Positions 1 to 7,312 of a DNA stretch of 7,312 nt are shown here, piece by piece. Position numbers and translations under genes: made by a program. Source of the stretch: a virus (taxonomy: Duplodnaviria; Heunggongvirae; Uroviricota; Caudoviricetes). The notes beneath the pieces were generated by a model that had not been told where the DNA came from, searched no databases, and was given only the letters and a program-made list of their open reading frames with translations. Within the stretch, counting starts at the first letter, position 1. Every line of letters starts with the position of its first letter. The stretch lies in the IMG/VR virus record IMGVR_UViG_2663762886_000007; one strand, 5' to 3'.

Positions 1-46
1 CTGGCGCACTGACGGTTTCATCGTGGGTGTCGGTTATAAGTTCTGA
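1..46 (+). CDS. lom: Lom (Ail/Lom/OmpX-family outer-membrane protein) C-terminal end, partial; gene continues upstream of the window
   Basis: Frame ending at TGA 44-46 encodes ...WRTDGFIVGVGYKF, identical to the C-terminus of the longer lom fragment at 1115..1516. Followed 28 bp later by a hairpin plus T-run. Whether the upstream lom is intact cannot be seen. Confidence 0.7.
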   Translation, partial: WRTDGFIVGVGYKF

Positions 47-73
47 TTAGCCAGGTAACACAGTGTTATGACA

Positions 74-99
74 GCCCGCCGGTTCAGGCGGGCTTTTTT
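74..99 (+). terminator. Rho-independent terminator downstream of lom (copy 1 of 3)
   Basis: GCCCGCC (74-80), loop GGTTCA, GGCGGGC (87-93), then TTTTTT (94-99). Perfect 7-bp GC-rich stem followed by a U-run. Confidence 0.7.
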
Positions 100-110
100 G
101 TGGGGTGAAT

Positions 111-1154
111 ATGGCAGTAAAGATTTCAGGTGTACTGAAAGACGGCACAGGAAAACCGGTACAGAACTGCACAATCCAGCTGAAAGCAAAACGTAACAGC
201 ACCACGGTGGTGGTGAACACGCTGGCCTCAGAAAATCCGGATGAAGCCGGGCGTTACAGCATGGACGTTGAGTACGGTCAGTACAGCGTTATTCTGTTGG
301 TGGAAGGATTCCCGCCGTCACATGCCGGGACCATCACCGTGTATGAAGATTCCCGACCCGGTACGCTGAATGATTTTCTCGGTGCCATGACGGAGGATGA
401 TGCCCGTCCGGAGGCTCTGCGCCGTTTTGAACTGATGGTGGAAGAGGTGGCGCGTAACGCGTCCGCGGTGGCACAGAACACGGCAGCCGCGAAGAAGTCA
501 GCCAGTGATGCCGGCACATCTGCCCGTGAGGCGGCAACCCATGCGACTGATGCTGCAGATTCAGCACGTGCAGCCAGCACGTCAGCCGGACAGGCCGCTT
601 CGTCGGCTCAGTCAGCGTCTTCCAGCGCAGGAACGGCATCAACAAAGGCCACTGAAGCCTCAAAAAGTGCTGCCGCTGCAGAGTCCTCAAAAAGCGCGGC
701 GGCTACCAGTGCCGGTGCGGCGAAAACGTTAGAAACGAATGCGGCAGCGTCACAACAATCAGCAGCCACTTCTGCATCCACCGCGACCACGAAAGCGTCA
801 GAAGCTGCCACCTCAGCCCGGGATGCGTCGGCTTCAAAAGAGGCGGCAAAATCATCAGAAACGAACGCATCATCAAGCGCCAGTAGCGCAGCTTCCTCGG
901 CGACGGCGGCTGCAAATTCTGCGAAGGCGGCCAAAACGTCCGAGACGAACGCCAGGTCTTCTGAAACGGCAGCGGGACAGAGTGCCTCAGCTGCGGCAGG
1001 CTCAAAAACAGCGGCTGCGTCGTCTGCCAGCGCCGCGTCAACAAGTGCCGGGCAGGCCTCAGCCAGTGCCACCGCCGCCGGAAAATCGGCAGAAAGCGCC
1101 GCATCATCCGCTAGACGTCATTCAGCTATGCAGGAGACAAGAATCGCCAGCTGA
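111..1154 (+). pseudogene. stf: Side tail fibre Stf, N-terminal fragment (copy A); stf sequence ends at about 1112 and the frame runs 14 codons into out-of-frame lom sequence before TGA
   Basis: ATG at 111 ([26 protein letters not shown]...) preceded by GGGGTG as a likely ribosome-binding site; the track's GTG at 105 is less likely the start. Nucleotides 111..1112 are near-identical to 2837..3838 of the full-length copy. After 1112 the sequence is lom-derived and the stf frame ends ...RRHSAMQETRIAS*. Confidence 0.7.
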
Positions 1155-1516
1155 CCCGTTACAGCGATACCCGCTGGCATGAAGATTCCGTTCGTAACCG
1201 CTGGTTCAGCGTGATGGCGGGGCCGTCTGTGCGCGTGAATGAATGGTTCAGCGCGTATGCGATGGCGGGTGTGGCTTACAGCCGTGTGTCGACTTTCTCC
1301 GGGGATTATCTCCGCGTAACTGACAACAAGGGGAAAACGCACGACGTGCTGACCGGAAGTGATGACGGTCGCCACAGCAACACGTCTCTGGCGTGGGGAG
1401 CTGGCGTGCAGTTTAACCCGACCGAATCCGTGGCCATTGATATTGCTTATGAAGGCTCCGGCAGTGGCGACTGGCGCACTGACGGTTTCATCGTGGGTGT
1501 CGGTTATAAGTTCTGA
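1115..1516 (+). pseudogene. lom: lom 3' fragment (about 134 codons) lacking its 5' end and start codon
   Basis: In the lom frame a TAG sits at 1112-1114, then TSFSYAGDKNRQLTRYSDTRWHEDSVRNRWFSVMAGPSVRVNEWFSAYAMAGVAYSRV...GSGSGDWRTDGFIVGVGYKF* to TGA 1514-1516. I recognise this as the C-terminal part of a Lom-type beta-barrel protein. The only in-frame starts are internal (GTG 1211, ATG 1214), with no obvious ribosome-binding site. Confidence 0.7.
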
Positions 1517-1543
1517 TTAGCCAGGTAACACAGTGTTATGACA

Positions 1544-1569
1544 GCCCGCCGGTTCAGGCGGGCTTTTTT
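1544..1569 (+). terminator. Rho-independent terminator downstream of lom (copy 2 of 3)
   Basis: Same GCCCGCC-GGTTCA-GGCGGGC-TTTTTT hairpin as at 74..99. Confidence 0.7.
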
Positions 1570-1580
1570 GTGGGGTGAAT

Positions 1581-2738
1581 ATGGCAGTAAAGATTTCAGG
1601 TGTACTGAAAGACGGCACAGGAAAACCGGTACAGAACTGCACAATCCAGCTGAAAGCAAAACGTAACAGCACCACGGTGGTGGTGAACACGCTGGCCTCA
1701 GAAAATCCGGATGAAGCCGGGCGTTACAGCATGGACGTTGAGTACGGTCAGTACAGCGTTATTCTGTTGGTGGAAGGATTCCCGCCGTCACATGCCGGGA
1801 CCATCACTGTGTATGAAGATTCCCGACCCGGTACGCTGAATGATTTTCTCGGTGCCATGACGGAGGATGATGCCCGTCCGGAGGCTCTGCGCCGTTTTGA
1901 ACTGATGGTGGAAGAGGTGGCGCGTAACGCGTCCGCGGTGGCACAGAACACGGCAGCCGCGAAGAAGTCAGCCAGTGATGCCGGCACATCTGCCCGTGAG
2001 GCGGCAACCCATGCGACTGATGCTGCAGGCTCAGCGCGTGCAGCCAGCACGTCAGCCGGACAGGCCGCGACTTCGGCTCAGGAGGCGTCTTCCAGCGCAG
2101 GAACGGCATCAACAAAGGCCACTGAAGCATCAAAAAGTGCTGCCGCTGCAGAGTCCTCAAAAAGCGCGGCGGCCACCAGTGCCGGTGCGGCGAAAACGTC
2201 AGAAACGAATGCTGCAGCGTCACAAAAATCAGCAGCCACTTCTGCATCCACTGCGACAACGAAAGCGTCAGAAGCCGCCACTTCAGCCAGAGATGCGGCG
2301 GCCTCCAAAGAGGCGGCAAAATCATCAGAAACGAACGCCTCCACAAGCGCCAGCAGTGCAGCCTCCTCGGCAACGGCGGCAGGAAATTCCGTGAAGGCGG
2401 CAAAAACGTCCGAGACGAATGCTAAGTCTTCTGAAACGGCAGCGGAACAGAGCGCCTCAGCTGCGGCAGACTCTGAGACAGCAGCTGCATCATCGGCCCG
2501 TGAGGCGTCCATTAAGGCAGAGGAGGCAGCAGTCAGTGCCACCGCCGCCGGAAAATCGGCAGAAAGCGCCGCATCATCCGCATGGTTCAGCGCGTATGCG
2601 ATGGCGGGTGTGGCTTACAGCCGTGTGTCGACTTTTTCCGGGGATTATATCCGCGTAACTGACAATAAGGGGAAAACGCACGATGTGCTGACCGGAAGTG
2701 ATGACGGTCGCCACAGCAACACGTCTCTGGCGCACTGA
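1581..2738 (+). pseudogene. stf: Stf N-terminal fragment (copy B) fused in frame to lom codons at 2581/2582, then frameshifted by an 83-bp deletion in the lom part
   Basis: ATG 1581. The stf-derived part 1581..2581 is identical to copy A over the first ~450 bp and diverges from copies A and C at many sites from about 2027. From 2582 the sequence is lom (WFSAYAMAGVAYSRVSTFSGDYIRVTDNKGKTHDVLTGSDDGRHSNTSLA) and the frame ends H-stop at TGA 2736-2738 just after the deletion point. Confidence 0.65.
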
Positions 2739-2772
2739 CGGTTTCATCGTGGGTGTCGGTTATAAATTCTGA
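2582..2772 (+). pseudogene. lom: lom 3' fragment (second, shorter) with an internal 83-bp deletion; a diverged lom allele
   Basis: Aligns to 1243..1516 of the longer lom fragment, with substitutions (for example L to I, AAG to AAA at the penultimate codon). The 83 bp corresponding to 1394..1476 are missing, bounded by the hexamer CTGGCG. The original lom stop is TGA 2770-2772. Confidence 0.6.
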
Positions 2773-2799
2773 TTAGCCAGGTAACACAGTGTTATGACA

Positions 2800-2825
2800 G
2801 CCCGCCGGTTCAGGCGGGCTTTTTT
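2800..2825 (+). terminator. Rho-independent terminator downstream of lom (copy 3 of 3)
   Basis: Same hairpin plus T-run as at 74..99 and 1544..1569. Confidence 0.7.
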
Positions 2826-2836
2826 GTGGGGTGAAT

Positions 2837-5800
2837 ATGGCAGTAAAGATTTCAGGTGTACTGAAAGACGGCACAGGAAAACCGGTACAGAACTGCACAA
2901 TCCAGCTGAAAGCAAAACGTAACAGCACCACGGTGGTGGTGAACACGCTGGCCTCAGAAAATCCGGATGAAGCCGGGCGTTACAGCATGGACGTTGAGTA
3001 CGGTCAGTACAGCGTTATTCTGTTGGTGGAAGGATTCCCGCCGTCACATGCCGGGACCATCACCGTGTATGAAGATTCCCGACCCGGTACGCTGAATGAT
3101 TTTCTCGGTGCCATGACGGAGGATGATGCCCGTCCGGAGGCACTGCGCCGTTTTGAGCTGATGGTGGAAGAGGTGGCGCGTAACGCGTCCGCGGTGGCAC
3201 AGAACACGGCAGCCGCGAAGAAATCAGCCAGCGATGCCAGCACATCAGCCCGTGAGGCGGCAACCCATGCGACTGATGCTGCAGATTCAGCACGTGCAGC
3301 CAGCACGTCAGCCGGACAGGCCGCTTCGTCGGCTCAGTCAGCGTCTTCCAGCGCAGGAACGGCATCAACAAAGGCCACTGAAGCCTCAAAAAGTGCTGCC
3401 GCTGCAGAGTCCTCAAAAAGCGCGGCGGCTACCAGTGCCGGTGCGGCGAAAACGTTAGAAACGAATGCGGCAGCGTCACAACAATCAGCAGCCACTTCTG
3501 CATCCACCGCGACCACGAAAGCGTCAGAAGCTGCCACCTCAGCCCGGGATGCGTCGGCTTCAAAAGAGGCGGCAAAATCATCAGAAACGAACGCATCATC
3601 AAGCGCCAGTAGCGCAGCTTCCTCGGCGACGGCGGCTGCAAATTCTGCGAAGGCGGCCAAAACGTCCGAGACGAACGCCAGGTCTTCTGAAACGGCAGCG
3701 GGACAGAGTGCCTCAGCTGCGGCAGGCTCAAAAACAGCGGCTGCGTCGTCTGCCAGCGCCGCGTCAACAAGTGCCGGGCAGGCCTCAGCCAGTGCCACCG
3801 CCGCCGGAAAATCGGCAGAAAGCGCCGCATCATCCGCTTCAACAGCCACAACGAAGGCTGGCGAAGCCACTGAACAGGCCAGCGCAGCAGCGAGGTCTGC
3901 TTCCGCAGCGAAGACATCCGAAACGAACGCGAAAGCGTCGGAAACCCGTGCAGAATCCTCAAAAACGGCTGCCGCATCGTCCGCCAGTTCGGCGGCGTCA
4001 TCGGCATCATCGGCGTCTGCTTCAAAAGATGAGGCGACCAGACAGGCGTCAGCAGCGAAGGGCAGCGCCACGACGGCATCCACGAAGGCGACAGAGGCTG
4101 CTGGTAGTGCGACGGCAGCAGCTCAGAGCAAAAGTACGGCGGAATCTGCAGCAACGCGCGCTGAGACAGCGGCAAAACGGGCAGAGGATATTGCATCCGC
4201 CGTGGCGCTTGAGGATGCGAGCACGACGAAAAAGGGGATAGTACAGCTCAGTAGTGCGACTAACAGCACTTCCGAGTCACTGGCGGCAACACCAAAAGCC
4301 GTTAAGGCCGCGTATGACCTGGCTAACGGGAAATACACCGCACAGGATGCAACGACAGCACAGAAAGGGATAATCCAGCTAAGCAGCGCGACCAACAGCA
4401 CGTCTGAAACGCTGGCGGCAACGCCAAAGGCAGTAAAAGCAGCCAATGACAATGCTGAGAAACGTCTGCAGAAAGATCAGAACGGTGCGGATATCCCTGG
4501 CAAAGACACCTTTACGAAAAATATTGGTGCCTGCCGTGCCTTCGGTGGGTCAGTAAGCACAACAACAGGAAACTGGACGACTGCACAGTTTATCGAGTGG
4601 CTGGATTCTCAGGGAGCATTTAACCATCCATACTGGATGTGCAAGGGTTCCTGGTCTTATGGCAATAATAAAATCATTACTGATACTGGCTGCGGTAATA
4701 TTCATCTCGCCGGAGCTGTCATTGAAGTAATGGGGATAAAGTCAGCGATGACGATCCGCATTACCACTCCGACCACATCCAGCGGTGGCGGAACAACCAA
4801 CGCCCAGTTTACCTATATTAATCACGGAACAGATTATTCACCTGGCTGGCGAAGGGACTATAACTCCAGAAATAAGCCAACGGCATCAGAGATCGGGGCG
4901 CTACCGTCAGGTGGAACAGCAGTATCATCAGTTAATCTGGCTTCAAAAGGTCGGGTAGCCGCGCTGACAGACAATACGCAGGGGGCAGCAGGTCTTGAGT
5001 TATACGAGGTGTATAACAACGGATATCCAACAGCGTATGGAAATATCATTCACCTGAAAGGGATGACAGCCGTTGGCGAAGGTGAGTTACTCATCGGCTG
5101 GAGTGGTACAAGCGGTGCTCATGCTCCGGCATTTATTCGTTCACGACGGGATACGACCGACGCAAACTGGTCGCCGTGGGCGCAGCTTTACACCTCGGCT
5201 CATCCTCCTGCAGAGTTTTATCCAGTCGGTGCACCAATCCCGTGGCCATCAGATACCGTTCCGTCTGGTTATGCCCTGATGCAGGGGCAGACTTTTGACA
5301 AATCTGCTTACCCGAAACTTGCAGCCGCTTATCCGTCAGGCGTGATCCCTGATATGCGTGGCTGGACGATTAAGGGCAAGCCCGCCAGTGGTCGTGCCGT
5401 ATTGTCTCAGGAACAGGATGGCATTAAATCGCACACCCACAGCGCCAGCGCATCCAGTACGGATTTGGGGACGAAAACCACATCGTCGTTTGATTACGGC
5501 ACTAAATCCACGAATAACACCGGGGCGCATACGCACAGTCTGAGCGGCTCTACAAGTTCAGCTGGGGCCCACCAACATAGTCAGACTGGGCCCAGAACGA
5601 ATAGCGGGAGTCAACCTACTGGAATGTTTCCGGCAGGGAGTACTCAAGTTAGCGGGACTAATCAGGTTGGTATCAGTGGCTCATTAACCAGTGGCACCTC
5701 CCAATGGGTAGGTAAATCATCTTCAGAAGGAAACCATACACACTCACTGTCCGGCACAGCAGCATCTGCGGGTGCACACGCGCATACTGTCGGTATTGGT

Positions 5801-5920
5801 GCTCATACGCACTCTGTTGCGATTGGTTCACATGGACACACCATCACCGTTAACGCTGCTGGTAACGCGGAAAACACCGTCAAAAACATCGCATTTAACT
5901 ATATTGTGAGGCTCGCATAA
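2837..5920 (+). CDS. stf: Side tail fibre protein Stf, full length (1027 aa)
   Basis: Long ORF starting [26 protein letters not shown]... with an Ala/Ser/Thr-rich repetitive shaft, a duplicated GI[VI][11 protein letters not shown][ST][11 protein letters not shown] motif, and a His-rich C-terminal region (HTHS, HQHS, HAHT, HGHT) ending ...[19 protein letters not shown] recognise this as lambda Stf-like. Stop TAA 5918-5920 overlaps the tfa ATG by 1 nt. Confidence 0.85.
4235..4450 (+). repeat. Intragenic tandem duplication (period 132 bp, 44 codons) of a 28-aa motif inside stf
   Basis: 4235..4318 encodes [28 protein letters not shown] and 4367..4450 encodes [28 protein letters not shown]. The protein is conserved but many synonymous sites differ, so the duplication is old and under selection. 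Confidence 0.8.
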
Positions 5921-6501
5921 TGGCATTCAGAATGAGTGAACAAGCACGGACCATAAAAATTTATAACCTGCTGGCCGGAACTAATGAATTTATTGGTGAA
6001 GGTGACGCATATATTCCGCCTCATACAGGTCTGCCTGCAAACAGTACCGATATTGCACCGCCAGATATTCCGGCTGGTTTCGTGGCTGTTTTCAACAGTG
6101 ATGAGTCATCGTGGCATCTCGTTGAAGATCATCGGGGTAAAACGGTTTATGACGTGGCTTCCGGCGACGCGTTATTTATTTCTGAACTCGGCTCATTACC
6201 GGAAAATGTCACCTGGTTATCCCCGGAAGGGGAGTTTCAGAAGTGGAACGGCACAGCCTGGGTGAAGGATACGGAAGCAGAAAAACTGTTCCGGATCCGG
6301 GAGGCGGAAGAAACAAAAAACAGCCTGATGCAGGTAGCCAGTGAGCATATAGCGCCGCTTCAGGATGCTGTGGATCTGGAGATCGCAACGGAGAAAGAAA
6401 CCTTGTTGCTGGAAGCTTGGAAAAAGTATCGGGTGTTGCTGAACCGTGTTGATACATCAACTGCACCGGATATTGAATGGCCAGTAGCACCTATAGGGTA
6501 A
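5920..6501 (+). CDS. tfa: Tail fibre assembly protein Tfa (193 aa)
   Basis: [61 protein letters not shown]..., which I recognise as close to lambda Tfa (phage T4 gp38-like chaperone family). Translationally coupled to stf through TAATG, with GAGGCT about 8 nt upstream. Confidence 0.9.
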
Positions 6502-6587
6502 ATTCGTAATGATTACCTAAATACGTTATTCTTTTGTTAAAAAAGTGATTTTGCTATAGGTAGGGAGTATGTTCTTGGATTAAGAAT

Positions 6588-6618
6588 AAAAAATCGCCAT
6601 GAAAGAGCTTCATGGCGA
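6588..6618 (-). terminator. Candidate rho-independent terminator for leftward (minus-strand) transcription
   Basis: Perfect inverted repeat CGCCATGAA (6595-6603), loop AGAGC, TTCATGGCG (6609-6617). On the minus strand the stem is followed by a U-run (complement of A-run 6588-6593). No minus-strand ORF is visible upstream of it in this window. Confidence 0.4.
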
Positions 6619-6947
6619 GTACATAAACGTACAAAATGTGATGAAAGTAGAGTGGCGTAAGCCACTATATTAAGATATGACAATAGCGAAGAAAAGTAAA
6701 TAACATTTTATGGACGTTTAATTGTTAATTATAAAAACTAGAGTGCCCGATATTGTTTATCTTGCTTTAAAATAATGTACTCAAACCAAATTTTTGAGCT
6801 AAAAGCTCAAATAATATAAATGCAATAATAATGTTTAATAAGACAATTAGCTTGCTTTGTATTTTCATTTCGGAATACTGTTAAGTAACTTTGATGACCC
6901 TAACAATAGATCGGAATTTTCTTAGAGTCAATGGTCACTGTTTTTGC

Positions 6948-6977
6948 TTGCAAAGCAAATGTTTTGGTGGTTATAAG
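6948..6977 (+). promoter_or_regulatory. Weak sigma70-like promoter candidate (TTGCAA - 17 bp - TTATAA)
   Basis: Hexamers at 6948-6953 and 6971-6976 with 17-bp spacing. Such matches occur by chance in AT-rich DNA, and it overlaps a small AT-rich hairpin (about 6943-6959). Confidence 0.15.
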
Positions 6978-7249
6978 TCGTCTTAATATAGTCACGCATG
7001 CAACTTGTTCCATGCGGAGATTAAAGATTGGAATATAACGCGAAGATGGAATTAAATTACATTTGCAATAATTAATTTATTATTACTCAATAATTACCGA
7101 TATTATTATTGTAAATTAATCATTAGAATGCAAAAAGAAATGTAACGGCAAAATAAGAGGACGATAGCTGAGAAAAAAGCGTGCTTTCCCAATCTGGGGC
7201 AAATCACGTCTGAATGACACCTGAAAACAGGTGGTAGCCTCAAGAAGGC

Positions 7250-7312
7250 TGGTGATGCTGCCAACTTACTGATTTAGTGTATGATGGTGTTTTTGAGGTG
7301 CTCCAGTGGCTT
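7250..7312 (+). other. Segment resembling the edge of a p15A-type (pACYC184) plasmid replicon fragment
   Basis: From memory, GGTGATGCTGCCAACTTACTGATTTAGTGTATGATGGTGTTTTTGAGGTGCTCCAGTGGCTT matches the sequence immediately after the cat-side junction in pACYC184, where the p15A-derived part begins. I cannot run a search, so this is recall only. Confidence 0.35.

What the first reader, a model, noticed from the sequence alone, without database searches (positions are those of the whole stretch)
6502..7249. Abrupt switch to AT-rich, ORF-poor DNA immediately after tfa
Composition changes sharply from GC-rich coding sequence to a strongly AT-rich ~750-bp tract with no ORF of 60 codons or more on either strand. 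In lambda, tfa is followed closely by leftward-transcribed b-region genes, which are absent here. The tract contains a good minus-strand terminator hairpin (6588-6618), a 6-bp stem with a GTAA loop (6651-6666), a 24-codon ORF (6599..6673, MKELHGEYINVQNVMKVEWRKPLY, no clear ribosome-binding site) and several promoter-like hexamer pairs. It could be a regulatory or small-RNA region, a remnant of a deleted accessory region, or a junction with foreign DNA.
Basis: seen in the sequence. Interest (0 to 1): 0.5.

Follow-up and report, generated by a model that had tools for sequence, protein, structure and literature searches.

The report
AT-rich mosaic spacer after tfa
The AT-rich, gene-poor stretch after the tail-fibre assembly gene is an ordinary patchwork of accessory prophage DNA: a widely shared 580-bp piece with a leftward terminator and a possible tiny gene, a short linker, and the edge of an old phage attachment site, all cut off by an IS1 insertion.

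Summary
**Observation.** Confirmed. GC falls from about 0.50 in tfa to 0.26–0.32 across 6502–7250. No ORF reaches 60 codons, and the minus-strand terminator, the small hairpin and the 24-codon ORF are all present.

**What it is.** The tract is the left half of a ~1.5-kb gene-free spacer. In intact ev099/mEp332-type lambdoid phages this spacer separates tfa from a YdeO-like AraC regulator gene. It has three pieces:
- **6502–7079:** a "post-tfa module" that travels with tfa in more than 800 E. coli genomes, in three different contexts.
- **7080–7165:** a very AT-rich linker.
- **7166–7250:** the first 85 bp of a fossil serU-type attR.

IS1 starts at 7251. In this lineage it is associated with a 550-bp deletion and shows no target-site duplication.

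**Function.**
- The terminator is the best-supported functional element.
- A 33-aa hydrophobic ORF (6868..6767, minus strand) shows a weak synonymous bias (5 of 7 changes, P≈0.01 uncorrected) but has no relatives.
- The flanking RNA folds strongly (z = −6.8) but shows no covariation, and the opposite strand folds equally well.
- The tract is not PasB, MicC or any Rfam family.
- Promoter-like sites and stop-free runs are at chance level for this composition.

**Verdict.** Ordinary mosaic accessory DNA of low interest. A small leftward transcription unit remains untested.

The parts
5920..6501 (+). tfa (tail fibre assembly gene, TfaQ type). Its stop codon is the left boundary of the tract. The Rfam 'IS009' match (6263-6461) lies inside it.
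   Evidence: ORF list. RefSeq annotation of the identical gene in L001. Rfam.
6502..7079 (.). Post-tfa module, ~578 bp at 31% GC. It always follows tfa. It occurs in 831 of 5,426 complete E. coli genomes and in four phage records (three phages), in three contexts: ev099/mEp332-type phage at attB-lambda, Qin-like prophage at ydfJ, and UPEC prophage next to sitABCD.
6582..6618 (-). Intrinsic-terminator-like element for leftward transcription. Stem 6618-6609 / 6603-6594, loop 6604-6608, U-tract 6593-6588 continuing to 6582. The stem is invariant in 18 haplotypes.
6651..6666 (.). Six-bp hairpin (GTAA loop on the plus strand, UUAC on the minus strand). The truncated copy L010 stops resembling the window just after it.
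6580..6722 (-). A 143-nt strongly structured segment: a long-range stem, two hairpins and the terminator. It is a candidate sRNA or 3'UTR. A perfect TATAAT lies at 6733-6728 (minus) with no -35 element.
   Evidence: Fold z = -6.76, but the plus strand gives z = -6.19 and there is no covariation. TATAAT read from the sequence.
6767..6868 (-). 33-aa hydrophobic ORF MKIQSKLIVLLNIIIAFILFELLAQKFGLSTLF. There is no Shine-Dalgarno sequence. It is intact in all full-length copies.
   Evidence: (5 of 7 variable sites synonymous, P = 0.011 uncorrected)
6903..6931 (-). Promoter-like site TTGACT-17-TATTGT that could drive the 33-aa ORF.
   Evidence: consensus match only; such sites are not enriched in the tract
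7080..7165 (.). Very AT-rich linker with short imperfect palindromes (7061-7124). It is found only in the ev099/mEp332-type copies.
7166..7250 (.). Left 85 bp of the phage-side arm of a fossil serU-type attR. In intact phages it continues into the last 60 nt of tRNA-Ser(CGA) and then 278 bp of E. coli chromosome.
7251..7312 (+). Left end of IS1 (768 bp in the full locus L001). There is no 9-bp target duplication, and 550 bp of the spacer are missing on its far side.

Best explanation
The tract is non-coding accessory ('b-region', moron-type) DNA of a lambda-like prophage of the ev099/mEp332 type, integrated at the lambda attB site beside ybhB-bioA. In intact phages, tfa is followed by ~1.5 kb without any substantial gene, and then by a YdeO/GadX-like AraC-family regulator gene, IS remnants, attP and int. 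The window holds the left half of that spacer.

It is a recombination mosaic of three pieces.

1. **6502-7079.** This module is co-inherited with the tfa 3' end whenever tail-fibre cassettes are exchanged. Its one clearly functional-looking element is a leftward intrinsic terminator 92 bp after the tfa stop codon. The most likely role of this terminator is to stop leftward transcription arising in the variable cargo region, or in a short local unit, from running antisense into the tail-fibre genes.
2. **7080-7165.** A short AT-rich linker.
3. **7166-7250.** The edge of a fossil attR. An ancestor picked it up from a serU-integrated prophage together with flanking host DNA.

IS1 later inserted at 7250/7251. 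AT-rich DNA is a favoured IS1 target. The insertion is associated with deletion of the next 550 bp.

**Shown:** the mosaic structure, the fossil attR, the IS1 junction and deletion, and the terminator sequence features.

**Inferred:** that the terminator works in vivo and insulates the tail genes, that the tract is silenced by H-NS, and that the modules spread by hitch-hiking with tfa.
For: **Context**
- The prophage lies at ybhB-bioA, with the gene order J, lom, stf, tfa, tract, IS1, AraC gene.
- Intact phages mEp332, ev099 and PhiR70_1 carry the tract at 98.5-99.2% identity without IS1. A further ~750 bp of gene-free DNA follows before the AraC gene.
- The AraC protein is YdeO/GadX-like.
- The AT-rich island extends through that gene.

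**Modularity**
- The first 578 bp sit after tfaQ at ydfJ, followed there by an annotated tfa 3' remnant.
- 546 bp sit next to a convergent sitDCBA operon in UPEC.
- Only the first 167 bp are present in an ETEC genome.
- The last 84 bp sit at serU-side prophage ends.
- Haplotype groups and breakpoints are shown.

**Fossil attR**
- mEp332 positions 6665-7199 match the 042 prophage end at 96.5%.
- Positions 6862-7199 match the last 60 nt of K-12 serU plus 278 bp of host flank at 96.7%.
- ARAGORN finds no intact tRNA there.

**IS1**
- The element is 768 bp. Its right flank resumes at mEp332 position 7300, so 550 bp are missing and there is no target duplication.
- 79 genomes share this junction and 706 hold the undisrupted site.
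- An independent IS1 insertion lies ~125 bp to the left in CE0021a.

**Terminator**
-; all 10 stem pairs are invariant.

**No hidden gene or known RNA**
- protein families and stop-free runs; Rfam.
Against: - No transcription data were available, so termination in vivo and any insulating role are inferred from sequence only.
- All copies are at least 84-93% identical. Conservation therefore reflects recent common ancestry and says little about function.
- The 33-aa ORF's excess of synonymous changes hints that part of the module is coding, not mere spacer.
- The U-tract is weakened in the UPEC-type copies (TTTCTT, CTTTCTT). This would be odd if termination were under strong selection.
Confidence: 0.7

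Rival explanations
1. The 578-bp module is an autonomous leftward 'moron'. A promoter at 6931-6903 would drive a ~310-nt mRNA that encodes the 33-aa hydrophobic peptide (6868..6767) and ends at the 6618-6594 terminator. The peptide would be a small membrane protein or a type I toxin-like product expressed from the prophage.
For: - The ORF is intact in all ~50 full-length copies.
- Five of 7 variable sites are synonymous, against an expected fraction of 0.24 (P = 0.011).
- Variable-site density is 0.071 inside the ORF and 0.126 outside it.
- A promoter-like site and a terminator flank it on the same strand.
- The composition is foreign.
- Gene callers have predicted this exact peptide in public data.
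Against: - There is no Shine-Dalgarno sequence.
- P is about 0.08 after correcting for the 7 ORFs tested.
- An exhaustive HMMER search finds no relatives, only the peptide itself and a frameshifted 43-aa variant.
- Pfam and PHROGs give no hit.
- A weak terminator-like hairpin lies inside the ORF (6811-6793).
- No antitoxin RNA was identified.
Confidence: 0.25
2. The structured segment 6722->6580 (minus strand) is an independent or 3'UTR-derived Hfq-type small regulatory RNA of ~140 nt that ends at the intrinsic terminator.
For: - MFE is -34.6 kcal/mol, z = -6.76 against shuffles.
- The terminator is followed by a run of six U.
- A perfect TATAAT lies at 6733-6728, just upstream of the structured domain.
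- cmscan gives a sub-threshold MicC-like architecture.
- Prophage sRNAs near tail genes are a known phenomenon (Pas sRNAs, PMC8550237; bioRxiv 10.64898/2026.05.13.724894).
Against: - The plus strand folds equally well (z = -6.19).
- There are no compensatory changes. Four one-sided changes preserve a pair, five pairs have cells that break, and shuffles equal the observed counts.
- There is no -35 element or extended -10.
- The MicC score of 22.8 bits is far below the gathering score of 90, with E = 0.93.
- It is not PasB.
- Neither hairpin sequence appears in the searchable literature.
Confidence: 0.2
3. The tract is the dedicated upstream regulatory region of the downstream YdeO-like AraC gene, of the H-NS-silenced, long AT-rich promoter type.
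For: - In intact phages the tract is part of a continuous AT-rich island that includes the AraC gene.
- Prophage AraC regulators such as AppY, PsrA/B and PatE belong to the AT-rich, H-NS-linked class, and H-NS is among the regulators of appY (PMC10057817, PMC10877973).
Against: - The 578-bp module occurs in hundreds of genomes with no AraC gene downstream, at ydfJ and next to sitABCD.
- The module lies 750-1500 bp from the AraC start codon, with a fossil attR and captured host DNA in between.
- In the window's lineage, IS1 and a 550-bp deletion separate the two.
- Promoter-like sites are not enriched.
Confidence: 0.1
4. The tract is a decayed (frameshifted or split) protein-coding gene.
For: It is AT-rich foreign DNA at a position where other prophages carry cargo genes. 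Several 30-58-codon stop-free stretches exist.
Against: - The longest stop-free run is no longer than in shuffles.
- Sensitive blastn against 50,697 phage records and 5,426 E. coli genomes finds only near-identical copies and no intact homologue.
- The small ORFs have no Pfam or PHROG hits.
- Apart from the 33-aa ORF, the small ORFs acquire stops or mostly replacement changes.
Confidence: 0.03

Closest known systems
Lambda b region and phage 'morons' (accessory DNA between the tail-fibre genes and attP)
   Same: It occupies the same position, after stf-tfa and before attP/int. It is non-essential, since functional phages tolerate IS1 and deletions there. Its base composition is foreign, it is mosaic between phages, and a terminator flanks a possible small unit.
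   Different: It has none of lambda's leftward ea genes. It is almost gene-free for 1.5 kb, and expression from the prophage has not been shown.
Prophage-borne AraC-like regulator loci (AppY of DLP12; PsrA, PsrB and PatE of O157:H7 prophages)
   Same: The spacer leads into a YdeO/GadX-like AraC gene in the accessory end of a lambdoid prophage, embedded in AT-rich DNA (PMC10057817, PMC10877973).
   Different: The regulator scores below the YdeO equivalog cut-off (148.7 against 348 bits) and was not compared directly with Psr, PatE or AppY. It lies outside the window. The 578-bp module is not specifically linked to it.
Pas sRNAs of EPEC prophages, especially PasB
   Same: Both are short, terminator-ended, minus-strand elements in non-coding gaps of the tail-gene region of lambdoid prophages. 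PasB flanks are enriched for the IS009 hit, which lies in tfa (bioRxiv 10.64898/2026.05.13.724894).
   Different: PasB lies between the tail-assembly gene and J, not after tfa. Its probe sequence is absent from the window. There is no expression evidence here.
Specialised-transduction-type capture of host DNA (lambda gal/bio) and fossil att sites
   Same: The phage genome carries a phage arm, 60 nt of tRNA core and 278 bp of chromosomal flank, which is exactly the structure of an attR.
   Different: The captured site is serU, whereas the phage now integrates at attB-lambda. Only the first 85 bp survive in the window.
IS1 insertion with adjacent deletion
   Same: The IS1 left end is canonical, the element is 768 bp long, the target is AT-rich, and adjacent DNA is lost.
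   Different: No 9-bp target duplication is present, as expected after an IS1-mediated deletion rather than a simple insertion.

Membership tests
Intrinsic (Rho-independent) terminator | G+C-rich stem-loop immediately followed by a U-tract on the transcribed strand | tested here: met
   On the minus strand the stem has 10-11 bp with 5 G-C pairs, the loop is 3-5 nt, and UUUUUUAUUCUU follows. The stem is invariant in 18 haplotypes. On the plus strand no T-run follows.
Intrinsic (Rho-independent) terminator | Transcript 3' ends at the U-tract in vivo or in vitro | not testable with these tools
   No transcriptome data could be accessed.
MicC sRNA (RF00121) | Score at or above the Rfam gathering threshold (90 bits) | tested here: not met
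   22.8 bits, E = 0.93.
PasB sRNA | Sequence identity to E2348/69 PasB and its position between the tail-assembly gene and J | tested here: not met
   The probe complement is absent from the window even with 3 mismatches allowed. The PasB locus lies between tail assembly protein I and J.
Any Rfam family within 6502-7250 | Covariance-model match | tested here: not met
   Only IS009 matches, and it lies inside tfa. The undisrupted phage spacer gives only sub-threshold echoes of the tRNA fragment.
Type I toxin-antitoxin locus | Small hydrophobic ORF | tested here: met
   A 33-aa ORF with a single predicted hydrophobic span.
Type I toxin-antitoxin locus | Membership of a known toxin family | tested here: not met
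   No Pfam or PHROG hit. There are no relatives among 1.84 billion cluster representatives apart from the peptide itself and a frameshift variant.
Type I toxin-antitoxin locus | Cognate antisense or complementary antitoxin RNA, and toxicity on overexpression | not testable with these tools
   No antisense promoter-terminator pair was identified. The only plus-strand promoter-like site is at chance level.
Phage moron (autonomous unit with its own promoter and terminator and foreign composition) | Foreign base composition and a flanking terminator | tested here: met
Phage moron (autonomous unit with its own promoter and terminator and foreign composition) | Own promoter, and expression from the repressed prophage | tested here: inconclusive
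   TTGACT-17-TATTGT is present at 6931-6903, but such sites are at chance frequency. Expression could not be tested.
IS1 | Terminal inverted repeat and a 768-bp element with insA/insB | tested here: met
   7251-7312 matches IS1A in thousands of records. The full element in L001 is 768 bp with an annotated frameshifted transposase.
IS1 | 9-bp target-site duplication | tested here: not met
   The flanks differ (..AGAAGGCT | CTTATTGGC..). The right flank corresponds to a point 550 bp further on in mEp332, which indicates an adjacent deletion.
attR of a tRNA-integrating prophage (fossil) | Phage arm, then the 3' part of the tRNA gene, then host flank, in that order | tested here: met
   Met in the intact relatives: mEp332 6665-6861 is the arm, 6862-6921 is the last 60 nt of serU, and 6922-7199 is K-12 flank. 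In the window only the first 85 bp of the arm remain.

The most novel reading that the evidence does not exclude
The 578-bp post-tfa module, present in about 15% of complete E. coli genomes and in viable lambdoid phages, could be an unannotated leftward gene. It would consist of a 33-aa membrane-active peptide (toxin-like or a superinfection or membrane modifier) whose mRNA carries a highly structured, terminator-ended 3' domain. That domain might also act as an Hfq-dependent sRNA. The module would spread by hitch-hiking with tail-fibre cassettes.
Probability: 0.2. Interest if true: 0.5.

Novelty: new member of a known kind. Interest (0 to 1): 0.22.

Why it matters
As it stands, this finding mainly cleans up annotation. 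A conspicuous AT-rich 'gap' after tfa turns out to be mosaic accessory DNA with a clear history.

- It travels with tail-fibre cassettes.
- It holds a fossil serU attR, with captured host DNA in intact relatives.
- It is a repeated IS1 target.

That history documents how lambdoid phages accumulate junk and cargo at the b region. It also shows that an IS1-bearing variant of the region has spread to 79 sequenced genomes.

The finding would matter more if the small leftward unit (33-aa peptide and/or structured RNA) proved to be expressed. It would then be a common, unannotated prophage gene, and it could be tested directly with the available phages mEp332 and ev099 in K-12.

Tried and rejected
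- **PasB or another Pas sRNA.** The PasB-IS009 association in the 2026 preprint suggested a link. PasB lies between the tail-assembly gene and J, and its sequence is absent from the window. Rejected.
- **MicC-like sRNA.** The cmscan hit is at chance level. Rejected as a family member.
- **24-codon plus-strand ORF.** It overlaps the terminator, has no ribosome-binding site, and only 2 of 7 changes are synonymous. Rejected.
- **ORFs of 26, 31, 35, 37 and 48 aa.** They acquire stops, lose their start codon, or show no synonymous excess. Rejected.
- **Decayed long gene.** Stop-free runs are at chance length and no diverged homologues exist. Rejected.
- **Covariation test of the RNA fold.** The copies are too similar (97% mean column identity), so the test was uninformative.
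- **Strand assignment from G-U wobbles.** It looked promising for the small hairpin. Across all helices, however, one-sided changes both preserve and break pairs. Dropped.
- **Protein homology for the 33-aa ORF.**
  - tblastn against phages returned nothing even for identical DNA, so it is uninformative.
  - Exhaustive phmmer found no family.
- **Search for diverged copies.**
  - GTDB species representatives hold no exact terminator anchor.
  - The back-translated ORF pattern in IMG/VR added only two UPEC-type copies.
- **Literature searches.** Searches for the peptide and hairpin sequences, and for transcripts downstream of tfa, found nothing.

Full report
**1. Observation**

The description holds. 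GC is about 0.50 across tfa and falls to 0.26–0.32 from 6501 to 7200. tfa is the 193-aa ORF at 5920–6501. Within 6502–7250 no ORF reaches 60 codons; the longest are 48 aa and 52 aa, and the 52-aa one runs into IS1.

The scan finds the minus-strand terminator at 6618–6594 followed by TTTTTTATTC. The 6-bp hairpin at 6651–6666 appears in the predicted folds, and the 24-codon ORF is present.

- Promoter-like hexamer pairs number 5, against 4.2 ± 2.2 in shuffles.
- The longest stop-free run (58 codons) is what shuffled sequence of this composition gives (64 ± 15).

The right boundary is 7250. From 7251 the sequence is the left inverted repeat of IS1.

**2. Context**

The full tract plus the IS1 end matches many E. 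coli chromosomes at 99.5%. In strain 20Ec-P-124 the gene order is J, lom, stf, tfa, tract, IS1, an AraC-family regulator, IS remnants, then ybhB-bioA. This is a lambdoid prophage at the lambda attB site, with the tract in the position of the lambda b region.

Three sequenced viable phages carry the tract at 98.5–99.2% identity without IS1: mEp332, ev099 (genus Radostvirus; held as two records) and PhiR70_1. In them the gene-free stretch continues for another ~750 bp, up to a 250-aa regulator gene.
- That protein matches the YdeO model over its full length but below the equivalog cut-off, and has the AraC HTH domains.
- The low-GC island runs from the tfa stop codon through this gene.
- Prophage-borne AraC regulators of this kind (AppY, PsrA/PsrB, PatE) are well described (PMC10057817, PMC10877973).

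**3. The tract is a mosaic**

Searching with the tract alone finds 1,343 genomes, but only 280 hold at least 80% of it. The pieces have different distributions.

*(a) 6502–7079.* This piece is found in 831 genomes, always directly after a TfaQ-type tfa, in three contexts:
- the ev099-type phage;
- Qin-like prophages at ydfJ, where it is followed by an annotated 3′ remnant of another tfa;
- a UPEC prophage, where it abuts a convergent sitDCBA operon.

Forty-seven IMG/VR contigs carry it. They fall into the same three haplotype groups. Two truncated copies (L036, an IMG/VR contig, and L010, an ETEC chromosome) lose similarity to the window just after the terminator (~6620) or just after the second hairpin (~6668).

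*(b) 7080–7165.* This is an extremely AT-rich linker with short imperfect palindromes. It is specific to the ev099-type copies.

*(c) 7166–7250.* This piece recurs at the ends of prophages integrated at serU, for example in E. coli 042.

**4. Fossil attR**

In mEp332 the sequence after the window's breakpoint runs into the last 60 nt of tRNA-Ser(CGA). It then continues into 278 bp that match the K-12 chromosome downstream of serU at 96.7%. The whole 535-bp block matches the 042 prophage end at 96.5%. ARAGORN finds no intact tRNA there.

This arrangement of phage arm, tRNA core and host flank is an attR. An ancestor must have acquired it from a serU-integrated prophage, for example by aberrant excision. 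The present phage integrates at attB-lambda. Window 7166–7250 is the first 85 bp of that phage arm.

**5. IS1**

In L001 the element is 768 bp. Its left flank equals mEp332 up to position 6749, and its right flank resumes at position 7300. So 550 bp, including the tRNA fragment, are missing and there is no 9-bp duplication. This is the pattern of an IS1-mediated adjacent deletion (established knowledge).
- Seventy-nine genomes share this exact junction, and 706 hold the undisrupted site.
- Strain CE0021a has a separate IS1 insertion ~125 bp further left, abutting the AraC gene.

**6. Functional signals in 6502–7079**

*Terminator.* This is the best-supported element. On the minus strand it has a 10–11-bp stem with 5 G-C pairs and a U6 tract, and the stem is invariant in 18 haplotypes. 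On the plus strand no T-run follows, so it is polar for leftward transcription. The UPEC-type copies have a weaker U-tract.

*Structured RNA.* The 143-nt minus-strand segment 6722→6580 folds at −34.6 kcal/mol (z = −6.76). The evidence does not go beyond thermodynamics:
- the plus strand gives z = −6.19;
- on 37 pairs there is no compensatory change, four one-sided changes preserve a pair, and five pairs have cells that break;
- shuffles equal the observed values.

*33-aa ORF.* The ORF at 6868..6767 on the minus strand (MKIQSKLIVLLNIIIAFILFELLAQKFGLSTLF) is intact in all full-length copies.
- Five of 7 variable sites are synonymous, against an expected fraction of 0.24. P = 0.011, or about 0.08 after correcting for the seven ORFs tested.
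- Variable sites are less dense inside the ORF than outside it (0.071 against 0.126).
- A promoter-like TTGACT-17-TATTGT lies upstream at 6931–6903.

Against it being a real gene:
- there is no Shine-Dalgarno sequence;
- Pfam and PHROGs give no hit;
- an exhaustive search of 1.84 billion representatives finds only the peptide itself and a frameshifted 43-aa variant.

**7. Comparison with known RNAs**

Rfam gives only IS009, which lies wholly inside the tfa coding sequence (6263–6461), and a chance-level MicC hit (22.8 bits against a 90-bit threshold, E = 0.93).

The Pas sRNAs of EPEC prophages were a lead, because PasB flanks are enriched for IS009 (bioRxiv 10.64898/2026.05.13.724894). However, PasB maps between the tail-assembly gene and J in E2348/69, and its probe sequence is absent from the window (PMC8550237 table S6). 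The peptide and hairpin sequences do not occur in the searchable literature.

**8. Verdict**

The tract is ordinary mosaic accessory DNA with a reconstructible history. It consists of a tfa-linked module with a leftward terminator, a linker, and the stump of a fossil serU attR, truncated by IS1 with an adjacent deletion.

The 'small-RNA or regulatory' reading remains untested. The only open point of some interest is whether the module's small leftward unit (peptide and/or structured RNA) is expressed. I put that at about 0.2–0.25.

Noticed in passing
window 1-3838: There are three tandem copies of a ~1.1-kb segment holding the lom-stf intergenic region and the stf 5' part (1-1112, 1471-2581, 2727-3838). 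They are 94-99% identical, and their first 300 nt are 100% identical. They give two truncated stf ORFs (349 and 387 aa) ahead of the full 1029-aa stf. A 151-bp piece (1243-1393) is also repeated at 2582-2732. In the related locus L001, RefSeq annotates stf as a single 3.4-kb gene.
   Followed up: partly
window 6263-6461: The Rfam 'IS009' sRNA family matches at 218 bits, but the match lies entirely inside the tfa coding sequence. This family hit probably reflects conservation of tfa rather than an RNA gene.
   Followed up: partly
L005 (mEp332) 6665-7199; also present in L006 and L007: Viable lambdoid phages carry a fossil attR: ~197 bp of phage arm, the last 60 nt of serU tRNA-Ser(CGA), and 278 bp of E. 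coli chromosome from the serU-yodB side. The phage itself integrates at attB-lambda.
   Followed up: yes
L004 (strain CE0021a) 5627-6384: An independent IS1 insertion lies ~125 bp left of the window's IS1 site. Its annotated transposase ORF overlaps the annotated start of the AraC gene by 4 bp, which implies a larger deletion. This suggests the AT-rich spacer is a recurrent IS1 target.
   Followed up: partly
L009 4587-4686; L002 6537-6686: In the ydfJ (Qin-like) context the 578-bp module is followed, in direct orientation, by a 3' remnant of a second tfa gene. This looks like a scar of tail-fibre cassette replacement.
   Followed up: partly
L001 11518-11724: In the window's lineage the right end of IS1 sits only 206 bp upstream of the start codon of the YdeO-like AraC gene. 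550 bp of its native upstream DNA are deleted, which might alter expression of that regulator.
   Followed up: no
window 6757-6768 and 6847-6858: A 12-nt direct repeat (minus strand AAAGCAAGATAA / AAAGCAAGCTAA) occurs at codons 4-7 of the 33-aa ORF and again overlapping its stop codon (its TAA is 6769-6767) and the 9 nt that follow. An 11-nt perfect inverted repeat (CTATATTAAGA / TCTTAATATAG, 6665-6675 and 6981-6991) brackets the ORF and its promoter-like site. Such matches are near chance expectation in AT-rich DNA.
   Followed up: no
L008 (UPEC BH100) 4001-4781: The UPEC-type copy of the module lies between tfa and the 3' end of a convergent sitABCD iron/manganese transporter operon. In that lineage the module separates phage tail genes from a virulence-associated cargo operon.
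   Followed up: no
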